Shown here in pieces: positions 308 through 12,849 of a stretch of DNA of 64,000 nt (position 1 is the stretch's first letter; every line of letters starts with the position of its first letter). Source of the DNA: an uncultured bacterium. GTDB lineage: Bacteria; Verrucomicrobiota; Kiritimatiellia; CAIKKV01. The stretch spans positions 16,757-80,756 of the forward strand of contig CALHRZ010000010.1 of the NCBI GenBank assembly GCA_938038445.1, read 5' to 3'. Below the pieces are notes generated by a model. That model was given only the letters and a program-made list of their open reading frames with translations. It had not been told where the DNA came from and ran no database searches. A program made the position numbers and the translations under genes.

Positions 308-1771
308 TCAAGGTATTCCGGAATATGGGCGGGAGGATGCGTGGGAGTCCCGGTTGTTCGAGGGATTTCGGTTTTGAGGCGAGTAAAGCAGGGGAAGGGC
401 GGAAAAAAAGAGGAGGGCTACGGCACCGAGGCTGAGCCAGAGACCACGAAACGAACGGGCGCGGGCTTGCAGGGTCGCGGGCCGCCCCAGCGGCAGTACA
501 TAAACGGTGTTGTTGAAGGCGCCGTGAATGAGCACGGAATAGGAACCGGCTTCCACGACGGCGGGGCTTCCCCAGCGATTCTCCCCTTTATTGATTTTGT
601 CCCAGATCGGTCGTCCGGTGTAGTAGGAGGTGACGATGCGGCCGGTTCGTGCATCCAGCAAATGCAGGTGGTTATCCAGAGCGGCGATTAACAAATGGGG
701 GCGTCCCTCGAGGTGGAAGAACGCTGGGGCAGAGTAGATTTCTCCCCCCAGTGCGCGGCGCCAGATCAAGTGGCCGTCGGCGGCGCGGAGGGCATAGACG
801 TTGTAATCGTGTGAGCCGGCGAATACGACCGGTTCGCCCTCCACGACTCCGATGCAGGCGGAGTTATCGAACCAGTTTCCGGCCATTCGTTTCCATCGTT
901 CGCGGCCGGTGGCGGCATCGAGGGCGATGAGGTTACCGAACTTGGATCCCAGGACGAGAACCGGTTTGTCGTCCTGGTCCCAGACGGCGGGCGCTCCCAT
1001 GACCTCGTGGGGCATCTGGTAAGTCCAACGCAACTGGGGGGTGGCGGTTTCGACTGTGAAACATTGCAGCAAGCCTTTTCGCGCGCAGATTGCGACGTGT
1101 GGGGTGCCGTGAATTCGGAACCCGATCGGTTCGCTGACATAGCCGCGGCTGACTTCGACACGCGCCCGGAGGGTACCGTCTTCGGGATGGAGCACATACA
1201 GCCATCCGCGTTGTTCATTGCGGGCGATCGAGCGATCGTACACAAATCCCCCCACGTAGAGGCGTTCTTCGAACAGCAGCGGTGCGGTCATTTCCGCTTC
1301 TCCGAGCGTTGGCCTTGCCGGCTCTAGTTCTCGAGTCCAGAGTGTTGTACCGGTTTGGGCATCCAGAGCGTAGAGGGTTCGGTCGTTGGAAGCCAGAAAG
1401 ACTGCGAGGCGTCCGCGAATATAACCCACAGCGGGGGGTGCGACGATTTCGGCGTTGGTCATCCGCCGCCAGAGGATGCGGGTGTTGACAAGGTCGAGAG
1501 CGTGGAGGGTTTGGTCATATCCCCCCAGGAAGGCTATGGGTCGGCCGTCGAGCATTGCGAGCGCGGGGGATGCCCAGACCGTCTGGCCGGGTTTGTAGCG
1601 TTGTTTTGCTTTCCATTCGTAATGCCATTCGGGGATTTCGATGGGATGGTTCGACTGCATGGTTGCGTCTCCTGCAGCGGACCGGCGTGCGGCGGGCCAT
1701 GGGTCTTCGGGGCTTGCCGGAAGAACGGTAGGGATGCAGAGGGCGATCGGGAGGAGGAGGGTCAACCGCAT
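308..1771 (-). CDS. Secreted PQQ-like beta-propeller repeat protein (BamB/PQQ_2-type repeats)
   Basis: The translation has repeated motifs (YALDAQTGTTLWTRELE, LYVLHPEDGTLRARVEV, VYALRAADGHLIWRRALGG) typical of PQQ-enzyme-like beta-propeller blades. The start was trimmed to the ATG at 1771 (MRLTLLLPIALCIP..., signal-peptide-like); this overlaps the upstream gene stop (1762-1764) by 10 nt. It is the last gene of the minus-strand operon. Confidence 0.6.
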   Translation of the reverse strand: MRLTLLLPIALCIPTVLPASPEDPWPAARRSAAGDATMQSNHPIEIPEWHYEWKAKQRYKPGQTVWASPALAMLDGRPIAFLGGYDQTLHALDLVNTRILWRRMTNAEIVAPPAVGYIRGRLAVFLASNDRTLYALDAQTGTTLWTRELEPARPTLGEAEMTAPLLFEERLYVGGFVYDRSIARNEQRGWLYVLHPEDGTLRARVEVSRGYVSEPIGFRIHGTPHVAICARKGLLQCFTVETATPQLRWTYQMPHEVMGAPAVWDQDDKPVLVLGSKFGNLIALDAATGRERWKRMAGNWFDNSACIGVVEGEPVVFAGSHDYNVYALRAADGHLIWRRALGGEIYSAPAFFHLEGRPHLLIAALDNHLHLLDARTGRIVTSYYTGRPIWDKINKGENRWGSPAVVEAGSYSVLIHGAFNNTVYVLPLGRPATLQARARSFRGLWLSLGAVALLFFSALPLLYSPQNRNPSNNRDSHASSRPYSGIP

Positions 1772-2826
1772 GGGCGATTCCAATCGTCCACGACCGTCAA
1801 AGCGTTTTGGGGGCAGCGATCGACGCATTTCATGCAGAAATGGCATTCGGCGGGTTCGATATGACCGTTGTGAACGGATTCCACACCGCAGACGCGGTCG
1901 CAAGCGCCGCAGGAGACGCATCGGGAGGGGTCATGCACGATGGTTCGGACGCTGCATCGCCCCGCCCATGCGATTGCAGCCCGCCAGGGGCAGAGGTACC
2001 GGCACCAGACGTGGGGGATCAGAAGAGCGGCGAGAATGACCATGCCGGTTGAAAGCAGCGAGGCGGGGTCGTACACCTTGGCGAAGCCGAGATGGACGGG
2101 AGAGGTCACACGGAGGCTGAGGAAGGATGCGGCGGTTACCAAGCCGAAAGAGACCCAGCGGAGCCTGCGTAAGGGCCGGTCCCAGCGGGCCGTGTTCCAC
2201 GTGACGAGCAGCGTGATCAGAACGAGGACTTCGGACCAATAGATGGAGGCATCTTCGATAAAAAAGAGCCGGGTAACACTGAGGCGGATCATCCAGAGAA
2301 TGAACACGGCCATCAAGACGAGGGCGCCGGCGAAGGCGAGACGGGAGAACGGCCATCCCTGCTCTTTACGCCGGAGGTTCCATCGAGCCGTGAGGGTCCC
2401 GATCCACTCTTGGAGTGCTCCGGTGGGGCAAATCCAGCCGCAGAAGGCGGGTCCGAACAGCATGGAGGTGGTCAGGATGACGGCGGGAACGGAGCAGTAG
2501 TACAGGGCGACGATATTCTCTCGGCCGATTTCGGTTAGTCCGCGATGAAAGTTGCGGATCATGCCGAAGACGCCGAGACAGGTGAAGACCACGAAGATGA
2601 AGACGATCACACCGAGGATCTGGTTGAACATCCGCCATCGCTGGCGATGGCGGGGGGGGAAGAGAATGGGAAGGATAGCGAGAAGGCCGAGTGCCAGGAT
2701 GGTGAGGAGTTCGACGTAACTGCCCTCCATGCCGAGGAGTGCGCGTTCGACGATTTTGATATTGCCCGTTGCGTCTGAGAGGAAGGTTTCCAGCCGATCG
2801 AATGCCGAAGAGGGACCTGTGTTCAT
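1762..2826 (-). CDS. Membrane polyferredoxin, NapH/MauN/CcoG-like 4Fe-4S binding protein
   Basis: Multiple TM segments carry CGWICP and CRYLCP motifs. The C-terminus has two ferredoxin-type clusters (CVSCGACDRVCG ... CHFCMKCVDRCP). The start at ATG 2826 overlaps the upstream ABC ATPase stop (ATGA at 2823-2827). Confidence 0.6.
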   Translation of the reverse strand: MNTGPSSAFDRLETFLSDATGNIKIVERALLGMEGSYVELLTILALGLLAILPILFPPRHRQRWRMFNQILGVIVFIFVVFTCLGVFGMIRNFHRGLTEIGRENIVALYYCSVPAVILTTSMLFGPAFCGWICPTGALQEWIGTLTARWNLRRKEQGWPFSRLAFAGALVLMAVFILWMIRLSVTRLFFIEDASIYWSEVLVLITLLVTWNTARWDRPLRRLRWVSFGLVTAASFLSLRVTSPVHLGFAKVYDPASLLSTGMVILAALLIPHVWCRYLCPWRAAIAWAGRCSVRTIVHDPSRCVSCGACDRVCGVESVHNGHIEPAECHFCMKCVDRCPQNALTVVDDWNRPCG

Positions 2827-3827
2827 GGAGCAGTCTCCTGGCCGAAAAGGTGGAGGTGTTGGGGGTCCCAGCGAACGGAGACGCGGGCGCCCGAAACCAC
2901 GTAATCGGGAAGGGGTTTTCCGAGGTGGGCGATCCATCGCCGATTGGAACCAAGCGAAAGTTCGACTTCATGGAAGGCACCGCGGTCGCGGCAGGCCAGG
3001 ATGGTGGCAAGGCATCCTGTTTGGGGGTTGGGAGAGTCCAGAAGGAGATGTTCCGGGCGGAGCATGGCCAAGGTATCGTTCGGGCAACCGAATTCCCGGG
3101 CGGGGCAAACGTTTTCCGCGCCGAGGAATCGGGCGATTTCGGGGTTGGCCGGGTGGTGGAAGAGTTCCTCGACTGGGGCGAGCTGCCCGAGGCGGCCGTG
3201 AAGGAGAACGCCGCACAGACCGTTAAGGGTCCAAGCTTCCTCGCGGTCGTGTGTAACATGGATGGTGGCGGTTCCCAATTCTTCGTGAACCAGGGTCAGG
3301 CATTCGTGAAGTTCGCGTCGCGAGTTGGGGTCCAACATGCCGAGGGGTTCGTCGAGGAGGAGGAGTTGGGGCTCGATTGCGAGGGCGCGCGCGAGGGCGA
3401 GTCGTCGGCCTTCGCCGCCGGAGAGGAGGCCGGCGCGGTAATGGGCACGGTGCGTGAGGCGGAAAAGGTCGAGAAAGCGGCGGATTCGGGCAAGGCGGTC
3501 GGTTTGGGAGAGGGGGAGGAAGCGGAGTCCGAACGCGATATTTTCCTGCACGGTGAGATGGGGAAAGAGATCATTGGCCTGGGCGACGTAGGCCATCTGA
3601 CGCTGTTCCGGCGGAAGCCGTCCGATGGGGCGGCCGTCGAGTCGGATGGCGGTAGGAGGGGAGCGATAGACCCCGGCGAGGAAGCGGAGCAGGGTCGTCT
3701 TTCCGCAGCCGGAGGGGCCGAGCAATACGAGCCATGCTCGGGCCGGCAGTTCGAAGGAGATGGGACCGAAATGAAATTCGCCCAGTTGTGCTTCCAGTTC
3801 GTGCACTTCCAGGAGGGGGACGCTCAT
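2823..3827 (-). CDS. ABC transporter ATP-binding protein, molybdate/tungstate/sulfate type with C-terminal TOBE-like domain
   Basis: Walker A GPSGCGKTT, signature LSGGEGRRLALARAL and Walker B LLLLDEP are present. The C-terminal ~100 aa resemble a TOBE/ModE-type oxoanion-binding domain. The start ATG (3825-3827) overlaps the permease stop (3824-3826) as ATGA. Confidence 0.7.
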   Translation of the reverse strand: MSVPLLEVHELEAQLGEFHFGPISFELPARAWLVLLGPSGCGKTTLLRFLAGVYRSPPTAIRLDGRPIGRLPPEQRQMAYVAQANDLFPHLTVQENIAFGLRFLPLSQTDRLARIRRFLDLFRLTHRAHYRAGLLSGGEGRRLALARALAIEPQLLLLDEPLGMLDPNSRRELHECLTLVHEELGTATIHVTHDREEAWTLNGLCGVLLHGRLGQLAPVEELFHHPANPEIARFLGAENVCPAREFGCPNDTLAMLRPEHLLLDSPNPQTGCLATILACRDRGAFHEVELSLGSNRRWIAHLGKPLPDYVVSGARVSVRWDPQHLHLFGQETAP

Positions 3828-5194
3828 GGGGAGTCTATTCTCCAGTCATGCAAGGTGGGGATACGGCGGGCGGCGTATTGGAGCAGAAAGAAAAGGGCAA
3901 GTGAGGCGATCAGGAGAAGGGTCACGAAAGGGGTTGTTTCCACCAGTCCTTGCCGTTCGAAACGATAGAAGATTGCGATGGGAGCCACGGGAGGATCGGC
4001 GGTCATGAAGTAGACGGCGCCGAATTCCCCTGCGGCCCGCGCCCAGGCGAGAACGGCGGCAAGGAATAGACCGCGGCGGGCAAGGGGAAGGACGAGAAAC
4101 CGGAACGCCCCCCAGGCATTGGCCCCGAGGTGGCGGGCGGCCAGTTCGAGGTCGGGTGGGACGGCATCGAAAGCCGCAATCGCGGGTTTCACCAGAAAGG
4201 GAAACGCGGTGAACATCTGGGCGATTACGATCCCGGCGACGCTTCCGTCCAGGGCGACACCCCATCGTGATTCGAGCCAAGCGCCGAGGGGTTGGGTCCG
4301 GCTGAAAACGGAGAGGAGGGCGATTCCGGCGGCGGACTGGGGAATGATGATGGGGACATCCATGAGGGCGAGGACGAGGGTTTTGCCGCGAAACGTCAGG
4401 CGGCTGAGGCCGTATGCGAGTGGAATGCCTAGGAGGGCAAGGCCGAGTGTGGAGAGGCAGGCGGTTCCGGCGGTCAGGAGAATCGCGTGGCGGGTTTCTG
4501 CCCGTTCCAATTCGACGGCGAGAGTTGCGGTGGACTGGCTGAGGAGGAGGACCAGGACGGGGAGAAGGACCAGGGCCAACGCGGCAAGTCCGATTCCCAG
4601 GCCGAGCAGAGCGGCGGGATTAGAGGGATGGGCGTGGGCGGTCAGTATGGAGCGGAGAAGAAGGGCCAATAGGATTGCGGATTCCCAGGCGTAGGGCTGG
4701 AAAAGGGTAAAGGCGAGGACGAGGATCCAGAACCATGCGAGGAGGCGGAAATCGCGTCCGGTAGCGCACAACCCCATTACGGCAAGGAGAAAAAGCGGTT
4801 CCGCATGAGGCAGACGGACAATGAAGAGATAAAAGAGCGCCAGGTAGCTCAGGGCGAAAACTATTCCGTAGCGTAGGGGGCGCTGTTCGAAAATGTTCCA
4901 AGCCACATAGACCGTGAGGAGGCTGACGAGAAGCAAGGCGCCACTGGTCAGCGAATCGGGCGCCAACCGATGACCGACAAGAGCATGGGCGGCATTCAGG
5001 AACAGTACGGCGCTTCCCATGAGTTGTGGGATCTGACGGCGTGCCATCCCAACGGACAAAAGGCCGTTGAGCGCAAGGAGTCCGAGGCTGAACGGTTCGA
5101 GGGGATCGAGCCGGCCGGAGGTTCCCAGAGCCAAATGGCCCAGAAGGTGAGCGCCGAGCAATAGGAAAGGTAGCCATGAAAGAAAAGAATTCAT
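3824..5194 (-). CDS. ABC transporter permease (ModB/CysTW/TupB-type) fused to an extra N-terminal ~200-aa polytopic membrane domain
   Basis: The C-terminal half has the classic EAA-loop region (AARHLGANAWGAFRFLVLPLARRGLFLAAVLAWARAAGEFGA). The N-terminal ~200 aa are additional hydrophobic helices. A strong RBS (GGAGGGGA) precedes the ATG at 5194. Confidence 0.65.
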   Translation of the reverse strand: MNSFLSWLPFLLLGAHLLGHLALGTSGRLDPLEPFSLGLLALNGLLSVGMARRQIPQLMGSAVLFLNAAHALVGHRLAPDSLTSGALLLVSLLTVYVAWNIFEQRPLRYGIVFALSYLALFYLFIVRLPHAEPLFLLAVMGLCATGRDFRLLAWFWILVLAFTLFQPYAWESAILLALLLRSILTAHAHPSNPAALLGLGIGLAALALVLLPVLVLLLSQSTATLAVELERAETRHAILLTAGTACLSTLGLALLGIPLAYGLSRLTFRGKTLVLALMDVPIIIPQSAAGIALLSVFSRTQPLGAWLESRWGVALDGSVAGIVIAQMFTAFPFLVKPAIAAFDAVPPDLELAARHLGANAWGAFRFLVLPLARRGLFLAAVLAWARAAGEFGAVYFMTADPPVAPIAIFYRFERQGLVETTPFVTLLLIASLALFFLLQYAARRIPTLHDWRIDSP

Positions 5195-6070
5195 TTACGG
5201 TTCCCCTCCGTAGGCGGCGATATCCGCGAATTGGGCGTAATCTTGGCGGCTGCCAAAAAAGACGGGCTTCAGCCGGCGGAATCCTCGATCGGTCCATTCC
5301 ACGCGGTCGGGGCTGATGAGGTAGCGCAAAAGGGATTCTGCTTCGCGGGGATGGGCGCTATCGGGGGGAATGGTGGCCGCGAATCGGATGGGGGCGGTTT
5401 CGTCCGATTCGGTTGAGAAGTTGATGGCGGAGTCGAGTGCGATGAACCGAATTTCATGCATCAGGGCAGCGGAGCGGAACAGGAAGGCATAATCTACATC
5501 GCCGGTTTTCAGACGGGCGGCCACCGTGCCGATATCGTCGGCGACTAGGAAGGTTTTTTCGCGCAATTCTTCTGCAAGCCCGGGATAGCCTTTTTGTTCC
5601 ATTCGTTTCCACAAGCGGAGTGTATAAAGGCCGGCGGGGCTTTGAATTTCGTCGGTTCGGGCCAGTCGGATACCGGGGGCGCGGAGTGCGGCGACCCAAT
5701 CACGTTCTGCCAGATCGGGATTGGGGGCGCGAAGACCGACGGCCAGGACCATTTCGTCGGAAAGCCAGACGAGATGCCAGCGGAAACGGCCGCGGCCCGT
5801 GGTAGCGAAAAAGGAGGGATCGGCCGACAGGAGGAGATCGCACGGGCGGCCGAGTTCCGTATAGCGACGGATGAGATTTCCGCTGCTGCCGGCTTCGGCG
5901 CGGATGCGGAGGCCGAGGTGTTGGGCCGCTGTGGGATAGAGATCTCGCAAGACAGGCTCGAAAACGGCAGCGTGGAACACTTGCAGAGTGGGAGGGGGTG
6001 GGGTACGGGAACAGCCGGGACACAGAACGGCCGAAACGATCCAAAAGAGGAGCAGTTGGAATCCTTTCAT
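5195..6070 (-). CDS. Periplasmic substrate-binding protein, molybdate/tungstate (ModA/WtpA-like) family
   Basis: The start was trimmed to the ATG at 6070 (MKGFQLLLFWIVSAV..., signal peptide). VFHAA..., EAGSSGNLIRRYTELG and LLLSADPSFF resemble the WtpA/ModA-type PBP family. The start overlaps the upstream stop (ATGA at 6067-6070). Confidence 0.6.
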   Translation of the reverse strand: MKGFQLLLFWIVSAVLCPGCSRTPPPPTLQVFHAAVFEPVLRDLYPTAAQHLGLRIRAEAGSSGNLIRRYTELGRPCDLLLSADPSFFATTGRGRFRWHLVWLSDEMVLAVGLRAPNPDLAERDWVAALRAPGIRLARTDEIQSPAGLYTLRLWKRMEQKGYPGLAEELREKTFLVADDIGTVAARLKTGDVDYAFLFRSAALMHEIRFIALDSAINFSTESDETAPIRFAATIPPDSAHPREAESLLRYLISPDRVEWTDRGFRRLKPVFFGSRQDYAQFADIAAYGGEP

Positions 6071-6867
6071 GGGAGGGGCGAACGTTCCTTGGGGTTTTGG
6101 AACACGGCCAGTGCGGCTCCCAGGGCGACGACGGTCTGGGGCGAAGGTGGGACCCAGATGCGGACGCCGAGATTTTCCTCCAGTGTATCGAGCAACGCGC
6201 GGTTGAGGGCGCCGCCGCCGACGAAGGCGAGAATTTCGCGGGGACCGATTCGGCGCACCATCGCGGCGATGCGATCTGCGATGGCCTGATGGGCGGCGGC
6301 TGCGATATCGGCCTTTGCGACATTCCGGGCGAGGAGTGAGACGACTTCGCTTTCCGCGAAGACGGCGCACGTGGAGTTCATATGGATGGGGACGGTGGAG
6401 GAGCGAGCGGCCTGAATAAATTCCGGCATTGAAAGATCGAGCTTTCGTGCCAGCATTTCAAGGAAACGACCTGTTCCAGCCGCGCATTTGTCGTTCATGG
6501 CAAAATCCTGCACGTCGCCCGTGTCGGCCAGAGCAATGACTTTGGTATCCTGGCCGCCGAGGTCAAGGACGGTTCGGATGGGGCCATGCGGGGAACCGAG
6601 AAATCGGGCACCGAGGGCCGAGGCCCGGATTTCGGTAATGATGAGATCACCCATTCCGGCTAGACGCCGACCGTACCCTGTGACGGCGACGGCCCCGACG
6701 GCTTGAGGGGAGAGATTGGCCTGGGCCAATACTCCGTCCAGCACCTGGCGGGCGCTATCGGCGGGCAGGATGGCGTTTGAGAGGACGACGCCGGCGATCA
6801 GCCGGGTGCCGTCGAAGAGAACGGCTTTGCTGGTGGTGGATCCGATATCGAGCCCGGCGGCGATCAT
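6067..6867 (-). CDS. BadF/BadG/BcrA/BcrD-type ATPase (CoA-substrate-specific enzyme activase, HgdC-like)
   Basis: The N-terminus MIAAGLDIGSTTSKAVLFDG is the acetate/sugar-kinase-fold signature of HgdC/activator ATPases. The later VGGGALN motif also fits. The start overlaps the upstream stop (ATGA at 6864-6867). Confidence 0.7.
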   Translation of the reverse strand: MIAAGLDIGSTTSKAVLFDGTRLIAGVVLSNAILPADSARQVLDGVLAQANLSPQAVGAVAVTGYGRRLAGMGDLIITEIRASALGARFLGSPHGPIRTVLDLGGQDTKVIALADTGDVQDFAMNDKCAAGTGRFLEMLARKLDLSMPEFIQAARSSTVPIHMNSTCAVFAESEVVSLLARNVAKADIAAAAHQAIADRIAAMVRRIGPREILAFVGGGALNRALLDTLEENLGVRIWVPPSPQTVVALGAALAVFQNPKERSPLP

Positions 6868-8114
6868 CTCAGAGTCTCCAAAAAGGCTTCGACCCGTACT
6901 CGGAGCTGTTCGGTGTCTTCGAGACTGTAGTCGGTCCGAAGGGTGAGGAGAGGGATGCCACGGGCCTTGAGGACCCGTTCCAGCCGACCGGTTTCGAGGT
7001 CGAAGGGTTGACAGAGGCGGAGAGCGTAATTGACGACGCCGTGGGCGTTGGAGCGTTCGACGAGATCAAGGATTCGATTGAAACGGTTGATGGAGTCAGT
7101 GAAACAAGGGCAAGGGGATCCGAAGACCGATCGGGCCGCGAGCGCTCGGAGGAGTGCATTCCAGCCGGATTCATCGGTGAGGGCGGGATCCGCGCAGGAT
7201 TGGATACCGGTACAGAGCGTATCGGCTACGAGGTCGGCGCCGGATTCTTCGAGGACTTGGATGGGTTTGAAATTGGGCCAGACGATGGGGGCGCCGGTCA
7301 AAATCAGTCGGGGGCGGAGCCGTTTGCGTTCCGGTTGGAAGGATTCGGCGTAGCGTACGGCTTTTTCGGCTTCCGGTAGCCATTCGGCAAGGGGGGTGGG
7401 AGAGAAGAGCGAAGACTGAATGATGAGGAACGCGTCCTGCAGACTCATGGATTCGGGGTGGGCGATCCGAGCCTCTTGGAGGCGGCGCGACAGGGCGGCG
7501 CGTTGGTTTGAATCATTGATCGCCAGTTGCAAGGCATCTCGTCGGATCCGGCGGCCGGTTCGTCTTGCGATGAAATCGGCAAGGCGATTATATTCATCGG
7601 TCATCGCGTGGGCGTAACGAGTCGGATCGGGGTTGGGAGGGAGCGACAGACTGAAGACCGTCTTGAAATCGGCCAACCATTCGATGAGTTTTCGTTTGGG
7701 GTCACAGGAGGCGGGTACGACCCAGGCGTTGCAGGAATTGGGGAGAGGGTTTCGGCTGGACACGAGGCCGAGCGTTGCCTTGGCGAGTGGGCAGATATCG
7801 CCGACGACGAGTTCTTCACCGGCCAGGAGTGCGGCGCTGCTGCCACAATCGAAGCGGAGGGTTTCGGCGTTGACGGCCCAGAAAAGTTCCGGAGGGGCGA
7901 AATTACAGAGGAGGCCGAACCGGCGAGTTTGAGGGGGAGAAAGGGAGGGGTTGAGGAGTTGTTGTTCGAACCAGGCGATGTTGGGTGGGCGCCGAGGGAT
8001 CTCGTGGAGTCGGCGGCGTTGTTCTTCCAGAACCGCGTGTTGTTTACGGCGGAGGGAAAGCCGGTCGGACCAGATTGGGGGAAGTTGATAGGGATGGTCG
8101 GGTGGGGACGTCAT
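6864..8114 (-). CDS. 2-hydroxyacyl-CoA dehydratase family protein (HgdB/BcrC/double-cubane-cluster-protein-like)
   Basis: The start was trimmed to ATG 8114 (MTSPPDHPYQ...), preceded by a GGAG RBS and overlapping the upstream polyferredoxin stop (ATGA at 8111-8114). Conserved Cys residues (DTLCTGIQSCADP; CPCF) and the overall pattern resemble PF06050 family members that pair with HgdC-like activators. Confidence 0.5.
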   Translation of the reverse strand: MTSPPDHPYQLPPIWSDRLSLRRKQHAVLEEQRRRLHEIPRRPPNIAWFEQQLLNPSLSPPQTRRFGLLCNFAPPELFWAVNAETLRFDCGSSAALLAGEELVVGDICPLAKATLGLVSSRNPLPNSCNAWVVPASCDPKRKLIEWLADFKTVFSLSLPPNPDPTRYAHAMTDEYNRLADFIARRTGRRIRRDALQLAINDSNQRAALSRRLQEARIAHPESMSLQDAFLIIQSSLFSPTPLAEWLPEAEKAVRYAESFQPERKRLRPRLILTGAPIVWPNFKPIQVLEESGADLVADTLCTGIQSCADPALTDESGWNALLRALAARSVFGSPCPCFTDSINRFNRILDLVERSNAHGVVNYALRLCQPFDLETGRLERVLKARGIPLLTLRTDYSLEDTEQLRVRVEAFLETLR

Positions 8115-9616
8115 GGCCACTGGCTCCGAGCGATGGGGCGGCCGGCAAACTCGGCGCGCAAGCAATCGTTTTGGGGGCACCATTCCACGCATTTGAGACA
8201 GTAGAGGCAGGCGGGTTGGGCGACATCTTCTGTTTTCATTTCGGAAGCGACGGTTGAGATATCCATGGGGCAGACTTCGCGACAAATTCCGCAGCGATTG
8301 CAGCGACGAGGTTGTTTGCGGAGGGAGAAGAGTCCCCCTCGGTTGAAGGGGGTAGCGAGCAATCCCATCGGGCAAAAACGGCAGAAAAAGCGGCGCGAGG
8401 CAGCGAAGGAAACGAGGAAAAAAAGCGTGAGAAGAGGGGCGACGATGAGGAAGAAGCCTCCGAGCCATTCCCGTCCTGGCAGGGGAGGGTATGCGGTGAG
8501 TCCGCGGGTTGCGACGGGGCATAGTTGTTGGGCTGGGCAGATTTTGCAGAAGGGGTAGAGAGGAATTTTACATCCGAGGAAGCGGCCATCGGCGTCCAAT
8601 CGTGGGATTGCGGCGGCGAGAAGGAGGCTGAAAGAACCGAAGGAGAGGCCGGCGCCCCAGGCGATCCTTTGACTTCGGGGTGAGGGTTTCCAATGGGGGA
8701 GTCGGAGAAGACGGCGGACGAGGTCGAATCCATCGCCCAAGGTTGCAAGGGGGCAAATCCATCCACACCACCAGCGGCCGGCAAGGAAGAGGGCGATGGT
8801 CACCGAGGCGATTGCTCCCAGAATGATGGCGAGGAGGCCGGTTTCATTCCGTGCGTTGCGGACGATCGTCCGAAAATCGAATTGGAAGAGACGTTGGAGA
8901 AGTTCCATGGGGCAGCCTTGGACGTAGCCGCCGTCTGCGCTGAATCGGCAAGGCGCGGACGGGATGTACGTGAGGCGATCGGGATCGTGAAGCGCGGGAA
9001 TCGTTTCAGAGAAGGCCACGACGTCGTTGCGTAATTGAGCCCGGCGGGCCATGGCGTGTTGCCAATCCGAAGGAGAACGGCGGAAAAGAAAGCCTCCGCC
9101 GAGGAGAAGAATTAGTGCGGTCAAACGGACAGAGGTGCGGAAGGCACGGAGGGGAACGAAGGGGTGGAGGAGAATGAGAATGGAGACGAGGCCGAGGAAC
9201 AGAGGGATAGGAGCGGAAGGCGCTCCCACGAAGCCTCCATCGGGAGGACGGCTCTGTTGCTGCGTTCCGACGTGGAGAATGAAACCGAGGAGAAGGAAGC
9301 AGGGCCAAACGAGAAAAATGCGGTATGCCGGGCGACCGTGCAGAAGAAGCGCAGGCAGGATGAGAAGAAAGAAGGCAGGGACGAGAGGATGCTGAAGGCG
9401 ATAAAGCCAGCGGGACCACCCGGGGTGAGTTTGGGCGAACCCATGGACCATAACGGACAAGAGGAAAACCCAGACAGGCACCATCCATCGAAGAAGGGGT
9501 GAGGAAGAACGGGAGGACGCCTTGAGCGCAAGGGAAGTTGCGAGGGCTACCAGGAGAGATTCCAGGGGGCGGAACCAAAATGCACCGCTTTGAAGAATGG
9601 CATTCAGCGGGTCCAT
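8111..9616 (-). CDS. Membrane polyferredoxin, NapH/MauN-like 4Fe-4S binding protein (second copy)
   Basis: The polytopic membrane protein carries a CGWICPLATLGD motif. Its C-terminus has ferredoxin motifs (CNRCGICREVCP ... CLYCLKCVEWCP). Confidence 0.6.
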   Translation of the reverse strand: MDPLNAILQSGAFWFRPLESLLVALATSLALKASSRSSSPLLRWMVPVWVFLLSVMVHGFAQTHPGWSRWLYRLQHPLVPAFFLLILPALLLHGRPAYRIFLVWPCFLLLGFILHVGTQQQSRPPDGGFVGAPSAPIPLFLGLVSILILLHPFVPLRAFRTSVRLTALILLLGGGFLFRRSPSDWQHAMARRAQLRNDVVAFSETIPALHDPDRLTYIPSAPCRFSADGGYVQGCPMELLQRLFQFDFRTIVRNARNETGLLAIILGAIASVTIALFLAGRWWCGWICPLATLGDGFDLVRRLLRLPHWKPSPRSQRIAWGAGLSFGSFSLLLAAAIPRLDADGRFLGCKIPLYPFCKICPAQQLCPVATRGLTAYPPLPGREWLGGFFLIVAPLLTLFFLVSFAASRRFFCRFCPMGLLATPFNRGGLFSLRKQPRRCNRCGICREVCPMDISTVASEMKTEDVAQPACLYCLKCVEWCPQNDCLRAEFAGRPIARSQWP

Positions 9617-10242
9617 ATCTTATTGATCGCAAGGAGTGCAAACACAACGGCCATGGGGAGGAGATACCACCAGAAATAATAATCGGCGCGGCTGTCCGCG
9701 ATGATGGAAATGGTGCCGAGCCGGGTTTCCTCGCCCGATGGTTCCGAACGGGTCAATGAGAAACGGCGGACTTTTTGAGCGGAAACCGGCGAGAAGGACA
9801 ATCGAGCAACGGTCGGATTGGAGCGTTGAAGAGCGTTCCCCCATTCAATGCGGAGGGGTCCCGCGTCGAGAGATTCCGGTGGCAATTCAAGGGCGAACGT
9901 CAGGCCGACGATTTCCCCGAATTCGCGGGTGAGGGTATTGGTTTCAATTACGAGGGGCAGAGGGCGGCCGAGTCCATCCGTTGCACCGATCCGATCGAGG
10001 GATCCGACAGATAGATGGGGAGGTTGGAAGCGGCCGTACACGATCCAACCCTGAGGGTTATGAGGAACGAACGAGGGGGTCTCCGACAGAGGGATTTCTT
10101 CGGGAGGTTCGGAGGGGGGCGGGTCAAGTTCCAAGAGGTGGATCGAGATTGACGTAGCCGATGTGTCGGCGGGACAAGATGGGCAGGAAAAGAAGAAAAG
10201 GAACGGGAGAGCGCACAGGAGGGCAAGACGGGGCATGGGCAT
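9604..10242 (-). CDS. Hypothetical secreted/membrane-anchored protein
   Basis: It has an N-terminal signal-like segment (MPMPRLALLCALPFLFFFSCPSCPA) and a C-terminal TM anchor (YYFWWYLLPMAVVFALLAINKIW). It overlaps the polyferredoxin start by 13 nt, so it is co-transcribed. Confidence 0.35.
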   Translation of the reverse strand: MPMPRLALLCALPFLFFFSCPSCPADTSATSISIHLLELDPPPSEPPEEIPLSETPSFVPHNPQGWIVYGRFQPPHLSVGSLDRIGATDGLGRPLPLVIETNTLTREFGEIVGLTFALELPPESLDAGPLRIEWGNALQRSNPTVARLSFSPVSAQKVRRFSLTRSEPSGEETRLGTISIIADSRADYYFWWYLLPMAVVFALLAINKIWTR

Positions 10243-10248
10243 ACGGCG

Positions 10249-11187
10249 TCAATCCGGAAGAAGCAGGCGGGCGAACACCAGCGGGTTTTGGTAGGAGGCT
10301 CCGTTTCCGAGCCAGTAGGAGAGGTGTGCGTCGCGTTGACGGGCCACATTGAGGAGGAAGGACTTTTGGATACCGAGGGGCTGAAGGGGAAGGGTCAGCT
10401 CGATGCCGTCGGGTCCTTTGACGGCCCGGGCTCCGGCGGGTGCGTTCTGAAGATCGGCGTTGGCCAGGTTAAGTAGGATCGAAGTCGGGGGAAGGTCCAT
10501 GTCGGAGCTAAGCAAGAGGGTCAGGACATCCGATTCCGCACTGGCGGTTTCGGGTGTGGGGATCATGGCGTAGAGCGTTTCGGCGTCTGCGGCGAGGCGG
10601 AGTCGGGTGCCGCAATTGGAGGGTTGCACCTCCACGTAGCGGCGGCTTTTGGAATCTTGGGAAAAGCTGGTGCAGAGCCAGGCATCGGCCCATTCGTCGC
10701 GGGTGATGGAGCCGTCAATTCGAAGCGAAGGGACTTTGCGGGGAAGCGTGGAGACGTTTATGGCGCGATCGAGTTCGACGGTTTTGAATTCCATGCGAGG
10801 TTGGCGGCCGTTGAAGAGGCGTAAAGCGATTTCGTAGCGGCCATCAGGCACTCCGGGTTTTCGTTTGAGGGTGACCGTGAAATACTCTTTTTTACCGCCG
10901 TGGCGGGTGGTTTGGAGTTGGGGGAAGGACCGCCATTCGGGAGAGGGAGTGACGGTGCTTTCGAAGTCGGGGCTAATCACTTCGAGCCGGATATCGGCGA
11001 TCGCCCGGTCCATGGTATTGAGGAGATGAACTCGGAAGGAAGCTTCCTGATGGATCCGGAGTTGTCCGTCGCGGATATCGACCTTGACGGCCAGATTGTC
11101 GCGGGCTTGTTCGAAAACATCGTTGCAGAGGTGGGACTGAACGTTCGCGAGGGGGAGGAAGAGTACGAGAAGGACGATTCGCTTCAT
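10249..11187 (-). CDS. Hypothetical secreted protein, possible CBM9/DOMON-like C-terminal domain
   Basis: The start was trimmed to ATG 11187 (MKRIVLLVLFLPLANV, signal peptide) with an AAGGA RBS. The motif IDGSITRDEWADAW resembles the CBM9/DOMON-like fold. There is a 7-nt gap to the next gene. Confidence 0.35.
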   Translation of the reverse strand: MKRIVLLVLFLPLANVQSHLCNDVFEQARDNLAVKVDIRDGQLRIHQEASFRVHLLNTMDRAIADIRLEVISPDFESTVTPSPEWRSFPQLQTTRHGGKKEYFTVTLKRKPGVPDGRYEIALRLFNGRQPRMEFKTVELDRAINVSTLPRKVPSLRIDGSITRDEWADAWLCTSFSQDSKSRRYVEVQPSNCGTRLRLAADAETLYAMIPTPETASAESDVLTLLLSSDMDLPPTSILLNLANADLQNAPAGARAVKGPDGIELTLPLQPLGIQKSFLLNVARQRDAHLSYWLGNGASYQNPLVFARLLLPD

Positions 11188-11259: not shown

Positions 11260-12621
11260 TTATTCATAAAACACATCCCCTTGCTCATTGAGGCGGACGT
11301 GGTAACGTCGCAGAAGATCGGGACCGGGTTCGAAGGGATCGCGGAGTCGGACGAGACGGGTATGAAGCAGGTGGTGCAATTCGGCGATTTGCTCTGGCGG
11401 GGCAGTGGGGAGGAGGTTATGGAGTTGAAAGGGGTCGTGTTGCACATCGTAGAGGAACCACGGGCCATCCGGACGTTCGGCATAGGCGTAGCGGGCGGTT
11501 CGCAAGCCACGGAATTCGAGCACGCGGGGGGGGCTCCGGCGGAGCTCGTGGAAGGGGCAGTAACAGGAGAGGAGGGCGGGTGTATTCGGTTCGTCGGGGG
11601 TGGTGCCAGTAAGGAGGGGGGCGAGGTTACGGCCTTCGGTTTGGGGCGGGATAGGGAGGGCCAAGAGACCGAGAAGGGTCGGCATGATATCCGGGGCGTC
11701 AATTGGGAACTGAACGGTACGGGGTTTGGCACCGAGTTTTTCCGTCCAGCGCAGGAGGAAGGGAACGCGGATGGACTCTTCGAAAGGCCACTGTTTTCTT
11801 AAGAGCCCCTGGGCGCCGAGCATATCGCCGTGATCGGAGGTAAAGACGACGAGGGTGTGATCAGCGATCCCTTGTTCCTCCAGGGTATCGAGAAGGCGGC
11901 CGAAGCATGCATCGAGCGCCGCGCCGTGGGCGTAGTAGCCCGCGAGGTCGTTGCGGGCTATTTCGGCCGTTTCCAGAGGCACGTTGGGGGAGAGTTGGAT
12001 TTTTTCGGGAGAAAAAAGCGATTGATATTGTTCGGGGGCGGTGTGGTAGGGGTTATGAGGGGGACCCCAGGAAAGAAAGAGGGCAAAAGGGCGGGGAGCA
12101 TGCGCGCGGGAGGCGATTTCGGCGCAGGCCAGGTCGGTTTGAGCCTTGGCGTCATATCCTTTCCAGAGAAGGGGTTCAGGGGCATCGGCATAGTACAGGG
12201 AATGGTTGTAGTCGTGGGTGCATTCGAAGCCGCGCCAGATCCGGAAGCCGAGGCGATCTTCGGGAGGGACGTAACGGGTTCTTCCGCCGCCGTGGAGATG
12301 CCATTTGCCGATCCAAAGCGTATCGTAATCCGCGGCGTTGAGATGGTCGGCCAGCGAGCCGCCGGGCACATGTCGGAGAGGCTGATCGTTGACGATGATC
12401 CCGTGGGCAAGGGGGTATCGGCCGGTGAGGAGAGAGGCGCGGTATGGGCTGCAGACCGGACAACCGCTCACCGCGTTGGGAAAAGCGATTGCTTGTGCGG
12501 CGAAGGCATCGGTGCGGGGCGTTTTCGCATTTGGATCTCCGGCGTATCCGAAGGCTTGGGCGCGCCATTGGTCGGAGAAGACGAAGAGGATATGCGGGCG
12601 ACGAAATGCAACATGTGGCAT
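11260..12621 (-). CDS. Sulfatase (arylsulfatase family)
   Basis: HILFVFSDQW ... CPVCSPYRASLLTGRYP carries the formylglycine C-x-P-x-R motif. The start was taken at ATG 12621. No obvious signal peptide is present. Confidence 0.7.
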   Translation of the reverse strand: MPHVAFRRPHILFVFSDQWRAQAFGYAGDPNAKTPRTDAFAAQAIAFPNAVSGCPVCSPYRASLLTGRYPLAHGIIVNDQPLRHVPGGSLADHLNAADYDTLWIGKWHLHGGGRTRYVPPEDRLGFRIWRGFECTHDYNHSLYYADAPEPLLWKGYDAKAQTDLACAEIASRAHAPRPFALFLSWGPPHNPYHTAPEQYQSLFSPEKIQLSPNVPLETAEIARNDLAGYYAHGAALDACFGRLLDTLEEQGIADHTLVVFTSDHGDMLGAQGLLRKQWPFEESIRVPFLLRWTEKLGAKPRTVQFPIDAPDIMPTLLGLLALPIPPQTEGRNLAPLLTGTTPDEPNTPALLSCYCPFHELRRSPPRVLEFRGLRTARYAYAERPDGPWFLYDVQHDPFQLHNLLPTAPPEQIAELHHLLHTRLVRLRDPFEPGPDLLRRYHVRLNEQGDVFYE

Positions 12622-12849
12622 GAACGTATTCTGCCAAAAAGGGGGCAGAGAACGGAAGAAAAACGTCGGAGTAAGACTTGCGCTGGCGTCTAACACCTCC
12701 GAGGGGATTTCTTTGAAGGGCGGGAGCAGATCAGTTGGAGTGTTGAGGGCTGGAGGGGTTGAGGGGGCGGCGTGAGGGAAGAGCGGATGCCAGCGGCGAT
12801 TGCGATGGAAGGTGGCCAAAGCGAGGAAGTCCTCATCGGCTTCGAGGCT

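What the first reader, a model, noticed from the sequence alone, without database searches (positions are those of the whole stretch)
3824..5194. ABC permease carries an extra N-terminal ~200-aa polytopic domain
The ModB/CysW-like EAA-loop permease domain occupies only the C-terminal ~250 aa. The N-terminal half (from MNSFLSWLPFLLLGAHLLG...) is a run of additional hydrophobic helices with no obvious family. A strong RBS supports the long start. A fused membrane domain on an oxoanion permease is unusual and may be the coupling point to the flanking polyferredoxins.
Basis: seen in the sequence. Interest (0 to 1): 0.5.

Follow-up and report, generated by a model that had tools for sequence, protein, structure and literature searches.

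The report
Oxyanion ABC permease with novel membrane domain
The gene really encodes a molybdate/tungstate-type ABC importer permease fused to a conserved eight-helix membrane domain of no known family, and this fusion is the hallmark of a transporter found almost only in a conserved redox gene cluster of uncultured anaerobes.

Summary

The domain is conserved in more than 110 homologues. Its dN/dS is 0.10-0.15, the same as the core. A profile search of 1.84 billion representatives found it only fused to this permease.

By the positive-inside rule the N-terminus is cytoplasmic. The invariant polar motifs (H70, APDxLTSG, NAE, QPYxWE) all lie at the periplasmic face.

The permease is part of a syntenic, overlapping operon: two unknown exported proteins, a polyferredoxin, a double-cubane-like reductase, an activase, a WtpA-like binding protein, this permease, an ATPase, a NapH-like polyferredoxin and a beta-propeller. 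All 46 permeases found next to the NapH-like gene carry the extension. That includes a divergent cluster type without the reductase.

My best reading is a built-in adaptor or hand-off module that links the importer to its redox partners. Physical coupling is untested and the substrate is unknown. I rate it a new variant of a known kind.

The parts
3824..5194 (-). Whole gene: 456-aa fused permease (N-domain plus ModB/WtpB-type core), stop codon at 3824..3826
4619..5194 (-). N-terminal accessory membrane domain, aa 1-192. Eight predicted helices: 2-26, 34-51, 57-77, 81-104, 107-127, 132-145, 149-163, 169-185. No known family or fold.
3827..4618 (-). Complete type I ABC importer permease core (ModB/WtpB fold), aa 193-456
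4124..4147 (-). EAA-loop motif ELAARHLG (E350..G357) of the permease core
4985..4987 (-). His70, 96% conserved (invariant in the 35-sequence set), in the outer half of helix 3; also kept in the distant short-extension subfamily
4940..4963 (-). APDSLTSG motif (aa 78-85) at periplasmic loop 3 and the N-cap of helix 4
4796..4807 (-). HAEP in this protein (family consensus NAEP, aa 130-133) at the periplasmic N-cap of helix 6
4754..4756 (-). Arg147, 98% conserved, in the turn between the two short helices 6 and 7
4682..4699 (-). QPYAWE motif (aa 166-171) at periplasmic loop 7 and the N-cap of helix 8. It is the most widely conserved signature and is also present in the distant subfamily.
5203..5209 (-). 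Shine-Dalgarno GGAGGGG, 8 nt upstream of the ATG
5195..6070 (-). WtpA/archaeal-ModA-like substrate-binding protein (291 aa). Its TAA stop abuts the permease ATG.
2823..3827 (-). ABC ATPase with a TOBE_2 domain (WtpC-like); 4-nt overlap with the permease stop
1762..2826 (-). NapH/MauN-type membrane polyferredoxin (354 aa); the best-conserved gene of the operon
308..1771 (-). PQQ_2/BamB-like beta-propeller (487 aa) with an N-terminal signal-like segment and a C-terminal hydrophobic anchor
6067..6867 (-). BcrAD_BadFG acyl-CoA-dehydratase-type activase (266 aa)
6864..8114 (-). HGD-D / double-cubane-cluster-like reductase (416 aa) with the 7-Cys pattern
8111..9616 (-). Second membrane polyferredoxin (501 aa; Fer4_5 plus Fer4_10)
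9604..10242 (-). Operon protein B (212 aa): signal-like N-terminus, C-terminal TM, no family
10249..11187 (-). Operon protein A (~312 aa from MKRIVLL), exported, no family

Best explanation
The gene encodes one polypeptide in which a complete ModB/WtpB-type permease is preceded by a conserved accessory membrane domain specific to this subfamily. The core is that of a type I, binding-protein-dependent ABC importer and presumably works as a homodimer with the adjacent ATPase and WtpA-like binding protein. The accessory domain has eight helices, or six in a divergent subfamily. Its N-terminus is cytoplasmic, and its invariant polar residues form a patch or cavity at the periplasmic face of the membrane. 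This extension is the hallmark of a permease subfamily encoded in a module of binding protein, permease, ATPase, NapH-like polyferredoxin and membrane-anchored beta-propeller. The module is usually preceded by a double-cubane-type ATP-driven reductase, its activase and a second polyferredoxin. The most likely role of the extension is a built-in adaptor: a docking or hand-off surface that integrates the oxyanion importer into a membrane and periplasmic redox assembly. Shown here: the domain architecture, translation and purifying selection, exclusivity of the fusion, predicted topology, and conserved synteny. Inferred: the homodimeric state, the adaptor role, the identity of the partner, and an oxyanion substrate.
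For: Architecture: WtpB model positions 10-247 of 251 map to aa 202-441. Foldseek matches ModB 3D31_C over 248/248 columns, 37% identity, TM-score 0.90 normalised to the target. The full-length AF2 model has pLDDT 94.8 and pTM 0.83, so the two halves are predicted as one rigid unit.

Translation and selection: more than 110 homologues of 450-490 aa cover over 90% of the query. Invariant or nearly invariant N-domain residues are listed. dN/dS against a 77%-identical orthologue is 0.15 for the N-domain (0.10 for aa 57-192), against 0.10 for the core. The N-domain evolves more slowly than the ATPase and binding protein of the same transporter.

Exclusivity: a profile search of 1.84 billion representatives gave only 23 hits. 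All are permease fusions or fragments, and one is an 834-aa fusion of N-domain, permease and ATPase.

Topology: K+R counts in the loops alternate (1.6, 0.64, 1.63, 0.02, 0.31, 0.41, 1.04, 0.0, 1.79). This places P31-F-E, H70/G74, APD80xLTSG, N130-A-E132 and Q166-P-Y-x-W170-E at the periplasmic side.

Association: the 10-gene synteny holds across Kiritimatiellia/Verrucomicrobiota, Lentisphaerota, Planctomycetota, Auribacterota, Spirochaetota and FCPU426. 17/19 N-domain-seeded loci have the NapH-like gene and 15/17 the propeller. 28/32 group-i and 18/18 group-ii loci seeded with the NapH-like gene have the permease upstream, and all of those permeases carry an N-extension. Adjacent genes overlap by 4 nt, which suggests translational coupling.
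Against: No direct evidence of a protein-protein contact exists. Rate covariation of the N-domain with the NapH-like protein is weak (partial r 0.32, against 0.26 for the binding protein) and was not tested statistically. The association is not absolute. L018 and L028 have the fused permease without the polyferredoxin and propeller nearby. L051 and L074-76 have the polyferredoxin and propeller without a permease upstream. A patch of invariant His/Asp/Glu/Ser/Thr/Tyr/Gln residues fits a small-ligand site as well as a docking surface.
Confidence: 0.45

Rival explanations
1. The N-domain is itself a ligand site. It would be a periplasm-facing, partly membrane-embedded pocket that binds the oxyanion, a metal or another small molecule. 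The pocket would lie at the N-termini of helices 4, 6 and 8 and be lined by H70, D80, T83, S84, E132, Q166, Y168, W170 and E171. It could act as a second receptor, gate or regulatory site, or as the place where the substrate is chemically transformed before translocation. This does not exclude the adaptor model.
For: All invariant polar residues cluster at the periplasmic ends of helices, three of them at helix N-caps. Helices 6 and 7 have only 14-15 residues, which suggests the periplasmic loops dip into the membrane and form a vestibule. The motifs kept in the divergent subfamily are E132, R147 and QPYxxE, that is residues rather than surfaces. From background knowledge, WtpA-class proteins coordinate tungstate with Asp and Glu carboxylates (stated in PMC11350598), so an acidic and hydroxyl-rich oxyanion site has precedent.
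Against: No pocket geometry could be examined because no coordinates were available. No known ligand-binding motif or fold was matched. H16 is only 86% conserved, so a bis-His haem or metal site using H16 and H70 is unlikely.
Confidence: 0.25
2. The extension is passive structural ballast. Extra helices would only stabilise the permease dimer or adapt it to the host membrane, as the additional N-terminal helices of MalF are thought to do, with no specific partner or ligand.
For: Type I permeases with extra N-terminal helices exist. MalF chains appear but align only over the ~230-244 columns of the core. Helices 1-2 are less constrained (dN/dS 0.29) and are absent in the divergent subfamily.
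Against: Twelve or more invariant residues, many of them polar, sit at one membrane face. dN/dS for aa 57-192 equals that of the catalytically essential core. The extension has been retained for a long time in two cluster types whose NapH-like proteins are only ~38% identical.
Confidence: 0.15
3. The N-domain is an independent conduit. This would be a small channel or secondary transporter for protons, a counter-ion or a reduced product, or an electron or radical path through its conserved Tyr/Trp residues, fused to the importer for stoichiometry.
For: Conserved polar and aromatic residues occur at several membrane depths: a periplasmic patch, Y117/S116/Y96/W156 mid-membrane, and R147 at the cytoplasmic turn. 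The two short helices resemble hairpins seen in some transporters.
Confidence: 0.07
4. Annotation artefact: the true start is internal and the N-terminal ~190 codons are not translated.
For: In-frame ATG, GTG and TTG codons exist inside the region. A few database homologues are shorter at 391-402 aa.
Against: The alternatives have no SD sequence, while the long start has GGAGGGG and abuts the upstream stop. Amino-acid conservation holds across more than 110 homologues and several phyla, with dN/dS 0.15. AF2 is highly confident. A triple-fusion protein keeps the domain.
Confidence: 0.01

Closest known systems
ModB of the archaeal ModABC/WtpABC molybdate-tungstate importers (M. acetivorans 3D31 chain C; A. 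fulgidus 2ONK chain C)
   Same: The C-terminal 250 aa share the same fold: 248/248 and 249 columns aligned, 37% and 33% identity, TM-score 0.90 and 0.82. The protein has an EAA loop, an adjacent TOBE-containing ATPase and a WtpA/archaeal-ModA-like binding protein.
   Different: The solved ModB chains are 248-252 aa with no N-terminal extension. This protein adds 192 aa in eight helices. Its scores fall below the equivalog cut-offs for WtpB (165 vs 340) and ModB (131 vs 183). The binding protein scores 51 bits against cut-offs of 243-355.
MalF of the E. coli maltose transporter (a type I permease with extra N-terminal helices)
   Same: It is a type I importer permease that carries membrane helices in addition to the conserved core. 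In one search the MalF chains align only through the core (~230-244 columns).
   Different: There is no sequence or fold relationship between the extensions. From background knowledge, MalF's additions are three helices plus the periplasmic P2 loop that contacts the binding protein. This extension has eight helices, short loops and invariant polar motifs at the membrane surface.
Double-cubane cluster protein DCCP with its ATP-dependent reductase (C. hydrogenoformans), and the association of DCCPs with the SAO ABC-importer locus described by Haft
   Same: The neighbouring HGD-D gene best matches NF040772 (double_cubane) and keeps a 7-Cys pattern, with an activase next to it. A genomic link between DCCPs and an uptake ABC transporter has a precedent (bioRxiv 10.1101/2022.07.06.499078).
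   Different: The score of 234 bits is below the 350 cut-off. The SAO transporter is of the nitrate/sulfonate/taurine type with selenocysteine and has no N-terminal membrane domain. The physiological role of DCCPs is unknown (PMC7317905).
NapH/MauN/NosR-type membrane polyferredoxins
   Same: Both flanking Fer4_5 proteins carry the CxxxCP motifs and two ferredoxin-type clusters typical of NapH.
   Different: All scores are below the family cut-offs. No NapG/NapA, NosZ or Mau partner is present. Here these proteins are instead partnered with an ABC importer and a beta-propeller.

Membership tests
Type I ABC importer permease (Pfam BPD_transp_1) | PF00528 domain above the gathering score | tested here: met
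   41.2 bits against a cut-off of 26.4, aa 255-440
Type I ABC importer permease (Pfam BPD_transp_1) | EAA loop (E-A-A...G...LP) for coupling to the ATPase | tested here: met
   ELAARHLG...LVLPLA at aa 350-371. Conservation in 112 homologues: L356 and G357 invariant; E350, P370 and L371 at 90% or more
Type I ABC importer permease (Pfam BPD_transp_1) | Operon with a cognate ATPase and a substrate-binding protein | tested here: met
   SBP_bac_11 gene abuts upstream; ABC_tran plus TOBE_2 gene overlaps downstream
ModB/WtpB fold | Six-helix ModB fold superposes over its full length | tested here: met
   3D31_C 248/248 columns, TM-score 0.90 normalised to the target, rmsd 2.3
WtpB tungstate permease (NF040839 equivalog) | Score at or above the curated cut-off of 340 bits | tested here: not met
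   165.5 bits. It is the best-scoring family but not an equivalog.
ModB molybdate permease (TIGR02141 equivalog) | Score at or above the cut-off of 182.6 bits | tested here: not met
   130.8 bits
CysT/CysW sulfate permeases | Score at or above the curated cut-offs (240-329 bits) | tested here: not met
   95-125 bits
WtpABC tungstate transporter (system level) | Binding protein is a WtpA equivalog; tungstate or molybdate binding | tested here: not met
   WtpA models give 51 bits against cut-offs of 243-355. The closest solved relatives are archaeal ModA/WtpA at E 1e-16 to 1e-10. Ligand binding cannot be tested here.
Canonical ModB/WtpB/CysTW permease architecture | Single permease domain of ~210-290 aa without extra membrane domains | tested here: not met
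   456 aa; NCBIfam profile lengths are 208-297; 192 extra residues in eight helices
Any described domain family for aa 1-192 | Significant match to Pfam, NCBIfam, a PDB sequence or a PDB fold | tested here: not met
Duplicated-permease architecture (ThiP/FbpB type) | N-terminal half is a second BPD_transp_1 domain | tested here: not met
   hhalign of the N-domain profile against the core profile: probability 0.1%
Haem-b / bis-His membrane cytochrome (considered for the N-domain) | Two invariant His on different helices at matching depth | tested here: inconclusive
   H70 is 96% conserved, but H16 only 86%, replaced by Tyr/Gln in some sequences. Cofactor binding cannot be tested here.

The most novel reading that the evidence does not exclude
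The extended permease, the NapH-like polyferredoxin and the membrane-anchored beta-propeller form one physical machine: a redox-coupled ABC importer. In this machine the N-domain's periplasm-facing pocket holds the oxyanion or metal species while electrons routed through the polyferredoxin transform it, before or during translocation. In the larger operon the imported species is then the physiological substrate, or heterometal source, of the double-cubane-type ATP-driven reductase. This would be the first ABC importer with a built-in redox partner and would assign a physiological role to a DCCP-family enzyme.
Probability: 0.15. Interest if true: 0.85.

Novelty: new variant of a known kind. Interest (0 to 1): 0.58.

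Why it matters
Type I ABC importers are regarded as self-contained machines made of a binding protein, two permease subunits and two ATPase subunits. This subfamily has carried an extra, strongly constrained membrane domain of unknown fold through deep divergence. It almost always sits beside a NapH-type polyferredoxin and a periplasmic beta-propeller, and usually beside a double-cubane-type reductase with its activase. That points to an undescribed way of wiring solute uptake to membrane redox chemistry in uncultured PVC-group, Spirochaetota and related anaerobes. The physiological substrates of double-cubane cluster proteins are still unknown (PMC7317905). An operon that hard-links one to a specific importer offers a concrete, testable lead: identify what the binding protein binds. 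The domain also deserves a family definition, since public annotation calls these proteins only 'ABC transporter permease'.

Tried and rejected
(1) A word-indexed homology search with the N-terminal 195 aa alone returned nothing. This was an artefact of hydrophobic low-complexity words swamping the candidate list. The full-length search and the exhaustive profile search did find homologues.

(3) Internal duplication of the N-domain, or a degenerate second permease domain, was rejected by hhalign.

(4) Homology of the N-domain to the membrane parts of the two polyferredoxins or to any other operon protein was rejected.

(5) A bis-His haem site was considered unlikely because H16 is not invariant.

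(6) Evolutionary-rate covariation to pick the partner gave only weak, non-decisive differences.

(7) A sulfate or sulfatase link was considered. A sulfatase is adjacent in the window, L033, L002/L012, L005 and L010, but not in most loci, and these genomes appear to carry many sulfatases (background knowledge, not tested). I did not adopt it.

(8) Literature searches for the cluster or for extended ModB/WtpB permeases found nothing relevant.

(9) Model coordinates were not exposed to the scripting sandbox, so no cavity or interface analysis was possible.
Full report
**1. What is at the coordinates**

The ORF at 3824..5194 lies on the minus strand and encodes 456 aa starting MNSFLSWLPFLLLGAHLLG. 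Its ATG (5192..5194) directly follows the TAA stop (5195..5197) of the upstream gene. It is preceded by GGAGGGG (5203..5209) with an 8-nt spacer. The stop overlaps the ATG of the next gene by 4 nt. Pfam finds one BPD_transp_1 domain at aa 255-440. The best NCBIfam model, WtpB (251 positions), aligns at positions 10-247 to aa 202-441. The permease core is therefore complete and confined to the C-terminal ~255 residues. The first ~192 residues match nothing in Pfam or NCBIfam, even when 35 family members are scanned at E <= 1. Hydropathy analysis and the structure models show them to be a run of hydrophobic helices.

**2. Is the long form real?**

There is no credible internal start. The in-frame candidates nearest the core (ATG M140, TTG L206) have no Shine-Dalgarno sequence.

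A full-length search returned about 120 protein clusters of 450-490 aa. They cover more than 90% of the query at 43-77% identity. Where the source gives a name, they come from Planctomycetota, Kiritimatiellae and Auribacterota MAGs.

In a 112-sequence alignment the N-terminal region is nearly as conserved as the core. The mean top-residue frequency is 0.65 for aa 30-192 and 0.71 for the core. Conserved positions:
- Invariant: G85, L88, F124, P167, W170.
- At least 90% conserved: H70, G74, A78, P79, D80, T83, S84, Y96, Y117, R147, W156, Q166, Y168.

Against the 77%-identical orthologue (L033), dN/dS is 0.15 for the N-domain (0.10 for aa 57-192) and 0.10 for the core. The N-terminal half is translated and under purifying selection.

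**3. Anatomy**

AlphaFold2 with the 112-sequence alignment gives pLDDT 94.8 and pTM 0.83 for the whole protein, and pLDDT 94.7 for the N-domain alone. The N-domain has eight helices: 2-26, 34-51, 57-77, 81-104, 107-127, 132-145, 149-163 and 169-185. Helix 193-219 follows and is the first helix of the ModB core.

Foldseek of the full model against the PDB finds ModB of M. acetivorans (3D31_C: 248/248 columns, 37% identity, TM-score 0.90) and of A. fulgidus (2ONK_C: 33% identity). All other type I permeases, including MalF, align only through ~220-300 columns, which is the core.

Family-wide K+R counts in the loops alternate (1.6 / 0.64 / 1.63 / 0.02 / 0.31 / 0.41 / 1.04 / 0 / 1.79). This gives a cytoplasmic N-terminus and eight membrane passes, and it delivers the chain to the cytoplasmic start of the ModB core. 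In this topology every invariant polar motif lies at the periplasmic face:
- P31-F-E in loop 1.
- H70 and G74 at the outer end of helix 3.
- APD80xLTSG85 at the N-cap of helix 4.
- N130-A-E132 at the N-cap of helix 6.
- Q166-P-Y-x-W170-E at the N-cap of helix 8.

Y96, S116/Y117 and W156 are mid-membrane. R147 sits in the turn between helices 6 and 7. Those two helices have only 14-15 residues, so the periplasmic motifs probably dip into the outer leaflet. That last point is an inference.

**4. What the N-domain is not**

- A profile of 35 N-domains finds nothing among PDB sequences (E >= 1.4).
- Foldseek gives E > 0.5 and TM-score < 0.4.
- It has no internal repeat and is not a degenerate second permease domain (hhalign probability <= 2%).
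- It is not related to the membrane parts of the neighbouring polyferredoxins or to any other operon protein.
- An exhaustive HMM search of 1.84 billion representative proteins found only 23 hits. All are fusions to this permease or contig-end fragments. One is an 834-aa fusion of N-domain, permease and ATPase. A distant subfamily of 405-411 aa retains only helices 3-8.

The domain therefore has no detectable life outside this permease.

**5. Genomic context**

The permease sits in a co-directional run of genes whose reading frames mostly overlap by 4 nt:
- A: exported, no family.
- B: signal-like N-terminus plus C-terminal TM, no family.
- C: 501-aa Fer4_5 polyferredoxin.
- D: HGD-D. The best match is NF040772 double_cubane at 234 bits, below the 350 cut-off. 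The 7-Cys pattern is C66-X19-C86-X17-C104-X28-C133-X163-C297-X33-C331-X32-C364.
- E: BcrAD_BadFG activase.
- F: WtpA-like binding protein.
- G: this permease.
- H: ATPase with a TOBE_2 domain.
- I: 354-aa NapH/MauN-like polyferredoxin.
- J: PQQ_2/BamB-like beta-propeller with a C-terminal anchor.

These assignments rest.

The same order recurs in loci fetched through individual homologues. It also recurs in 25 GTDB species representatives seeded with the N-domain. All 25 are MAGs or SAGs, from Verrucomicrobiota/Kiritimatiellia, Lentisphaerales/Victivallales, Planctomycetota including Brocadiia, FCPU426, Spirochaetota and unclassified lineages. Where the contig leaves room:
- 17/19 have I.
- 15/17 have J.
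- 19/23 have E.
- 18/23 have D.

The converse test seeded a metagenome scan with the NapH-like protein I and returned 80 loci in two groups.
- Group i has I at 52-88% identity. 28 of 32 loci with enough upstream sequence carry the permease, and all 28 have the N-domain.
- Group ii has I at 36-41% identity and is a simpler F-G-H-I-J cluster without D and E. All 18 of its loci carry the permease.
- Every complete permease ORF in group ii has a 144-164-aa extension. This extension is homologous to N-domain positions ~63-195 (hmmsearch E 1e-11 to 1e-15) and keeps E132, R147 and QPYxxE.

No permease next to an I-type polyferredoxin lacks the extension (46 of 46). Another distant member (L031) sits directly after HGD-D and the activase.

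The minimal conserved module is therefore binding protein, extended permease, ATPase, NapH-like polyferredoxin and beta-propeller.

There are exceptions. L018 and L028 have the permease without I and J. L051 and L074-76 have I and J without a permease upstream.

**6. How it most likely works**

Shown:
- It is a complete type I importer permease with an ATPase and a binding protein of the archaeal ModA/WtpA class. The closest solved relatives of the binding protein are MA_0280, AF_0094, MJ1186 and PF0080, at E 1e-16 to 1e-10.
- It carries an extra, rigidly packed, strongly constrained membrane domain.
- The conserved residues of that domain face the periplasm.
- It co-inherits tightly with I and J.

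Inferred: the extension is a built-in adaptor or hand-off module that ties the importer to its membrane and periplasmic redox partners. I put this at about 0.45. The closely related alternative, that the conserved pocket itself binds the oxyanion or a metal, is at about 0.25, and the two are not exclusive.

A mirror-tree test, controlling for the activase, ATPase and HGD-D distances, ranks the partners of the N-domain as follows:
- its own core: 0.53
- I: 0.32
- binding protein: 0.26
- B: 0.21
- C: 0.19
- J: 0.13
- A: 0.03

As a sanity check, the core pairs best with the binding protein (0.45). These differences are small and were not tested statistically, so they are only a hint.

A purely passive role (about 0.15) is hard to reconcile with a dozen invariant polar residues and a core-like dN/dS. 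An independent channel (about 0.07) has no fold or repeat support. An annotation artefact (about 0.01) is excluded.

**7. Substrate**

The substrate is not established. All three transporter components score best against the Wtp (tungstate) models but far below the equivalog cut-offs: permease 165/340, ATPase 219/440, binding protein 51/243. In the alignment to MA_0280, the 'FHAGS' and 'NDDPAG' segments read 'FHAAV' and 'IQSPAG' here. I could not map these differences to ligand residues with the tools available. 'Oxyanion' is therefore an inference from family resemblance.

**8. Comparison with what is known, and novelty**

The core is a member of the BPD_transp_1/ModB fold family. All features tested for that family are met. 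It is not an equivalog of WtpB, ModB or CysT/W, because the cut-offs are not met. The extension belongs to no described family. Extra N-terminal helices occur in MalF, but they are unrelated.

At system level the nearest precedent is Haft's observation that double-cubane proteins co-occur with, and often sit next to, an uptake ABC transporter locus called SAO (bioRxiv 10.1101/2022.07.06.499078). The physiological function of DCCPs is explicitly unknown (PMC7317905).

Literature searches found no description of this cluster or of extended ModB/WtpB permeases. Public annotations read only 'ABC transporter permease' or 'molybdate/tungstate transport system permease protein'.

I rate it a new variant of a known kind: a known transporter class with an undescribed, obligate accessory domain, embedded in an undescribed redox operon.

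**9. Limits**

- No multimer prediction was possible and the AlphaFold DB library was unavailable.
- All members come from uncultured organisms.
- Locus retrieval used short peptide patterns, so the counts are lower bounds and may miss divergent members.

Noticed in passing
window 308..11187 (minus strand): There is a ten-gene co-directional operon: A, B, polyferredoxin, double-cubane-like reductase, activase, binding protein, fused permease, ATPase, NapH-like polyferredoxin, beta-propeller. Most reading frames overlap by 4 nt (ATGA type), which suggests translational coupling. The same order recurs across at least six phyla of uncultured bacteria.
   Followed up: yes
window 6864..8114 (-): The HGD-D protein best matches NF040772 double_cubane (234 bits, cut-off 350). 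It keeps a DCCP-like 7-Cys pattern (C66-X19-C86-X17-C104-X28-C133-X163-C297-X33-C331-X32-C364) and has two additional invariant Cys (C124, C333). The spacings differ by 1-3 residues from the published motif.
   Followed up: partly
window 1762..2826 (-): The NapH-like 354-aa polyferredoxin is the slowest-evolving gene of the operon. It is 59-88% identical across phyla, with a mean Kimura distance of 0.42 against 0.58 for the permease core and 0.89 for the ATPase. More than 150 columns are invariant in an 8-sequence alignment.
   Followed up: partly
loci L080-L113 (metagenome contigs): A second, simpler cluster type exists: binding protein, permease with a 144-164-aa extension, ATPase, NapH-like protein (~38% identity) and beta-propeller (~31% identity). 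It has no double-cubane reductase or activase within the flanks. Its taxonomy and habitat were not examined.
   Followed up: partly
P0125 (834 aa): This is a single polypeptide fusing the N-domain, the permease core and the ABC ATPase with its TOBE region. Its context was not fetched.
   Followed up: no
window 5195..6070 (-): The binding protein family has two invariant cysteines (C77, C202). At least C77 aligns to Ala in the closest solved WtpA/ModA (MA_0280). The 'FHAGS' and 'NDDPAG' segments of WtpA read 'FHAAV' and 'IQSPAG' here. This may indicate a substrate other than molybdate or tungstate.
   Followed up: partly
window 11260..12819 (-); L033 2629-3990; L002, L005, L010: A sulfatase gene lies immediately upstream of the operon and co-directional with it, both in the window and in its closest relative (L033). 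Sulfatases also lie nearby on the opposite strand in three other loci. L033 additionally has two Sulf_transp (YeeE-like) genes and a ferritin just upstream. The adjacency is not conserved in most loci.
   Followed up: partly
window 9604..10242 and 10249..11187 (-): Operon proteins A (~312 aa) and B (212 aa) have signal-like N-termini and no Pfam or NCBIfam match. A has 18 invariant polar residues, including C45, D47, D61, R63, D64, E189 and W190. B is the fastest-evolving gene (mean distance 1.41).
   Followed up: partly
loci L051, L074, L075, L076: Orthologues of the NapH-like protein (52-60% identity) and of the beta-propeller occur here without any ABC transporter gene in the 3-6 kb of upstream sequence fetched for each locus. 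The I-J pair can therefore exist apart from the permease.
   Followed up: no
locus L001/L014 (Victivallales chromosome OY787460.1, 8.6 Mb): This variant operon lacks A-D next to the activase and has an extra 230-aa unannotated ORF between the ATPase and the NapH-like gene. Three unannotated ORFs lie upstream on the opposite strand.
   Followed up: no
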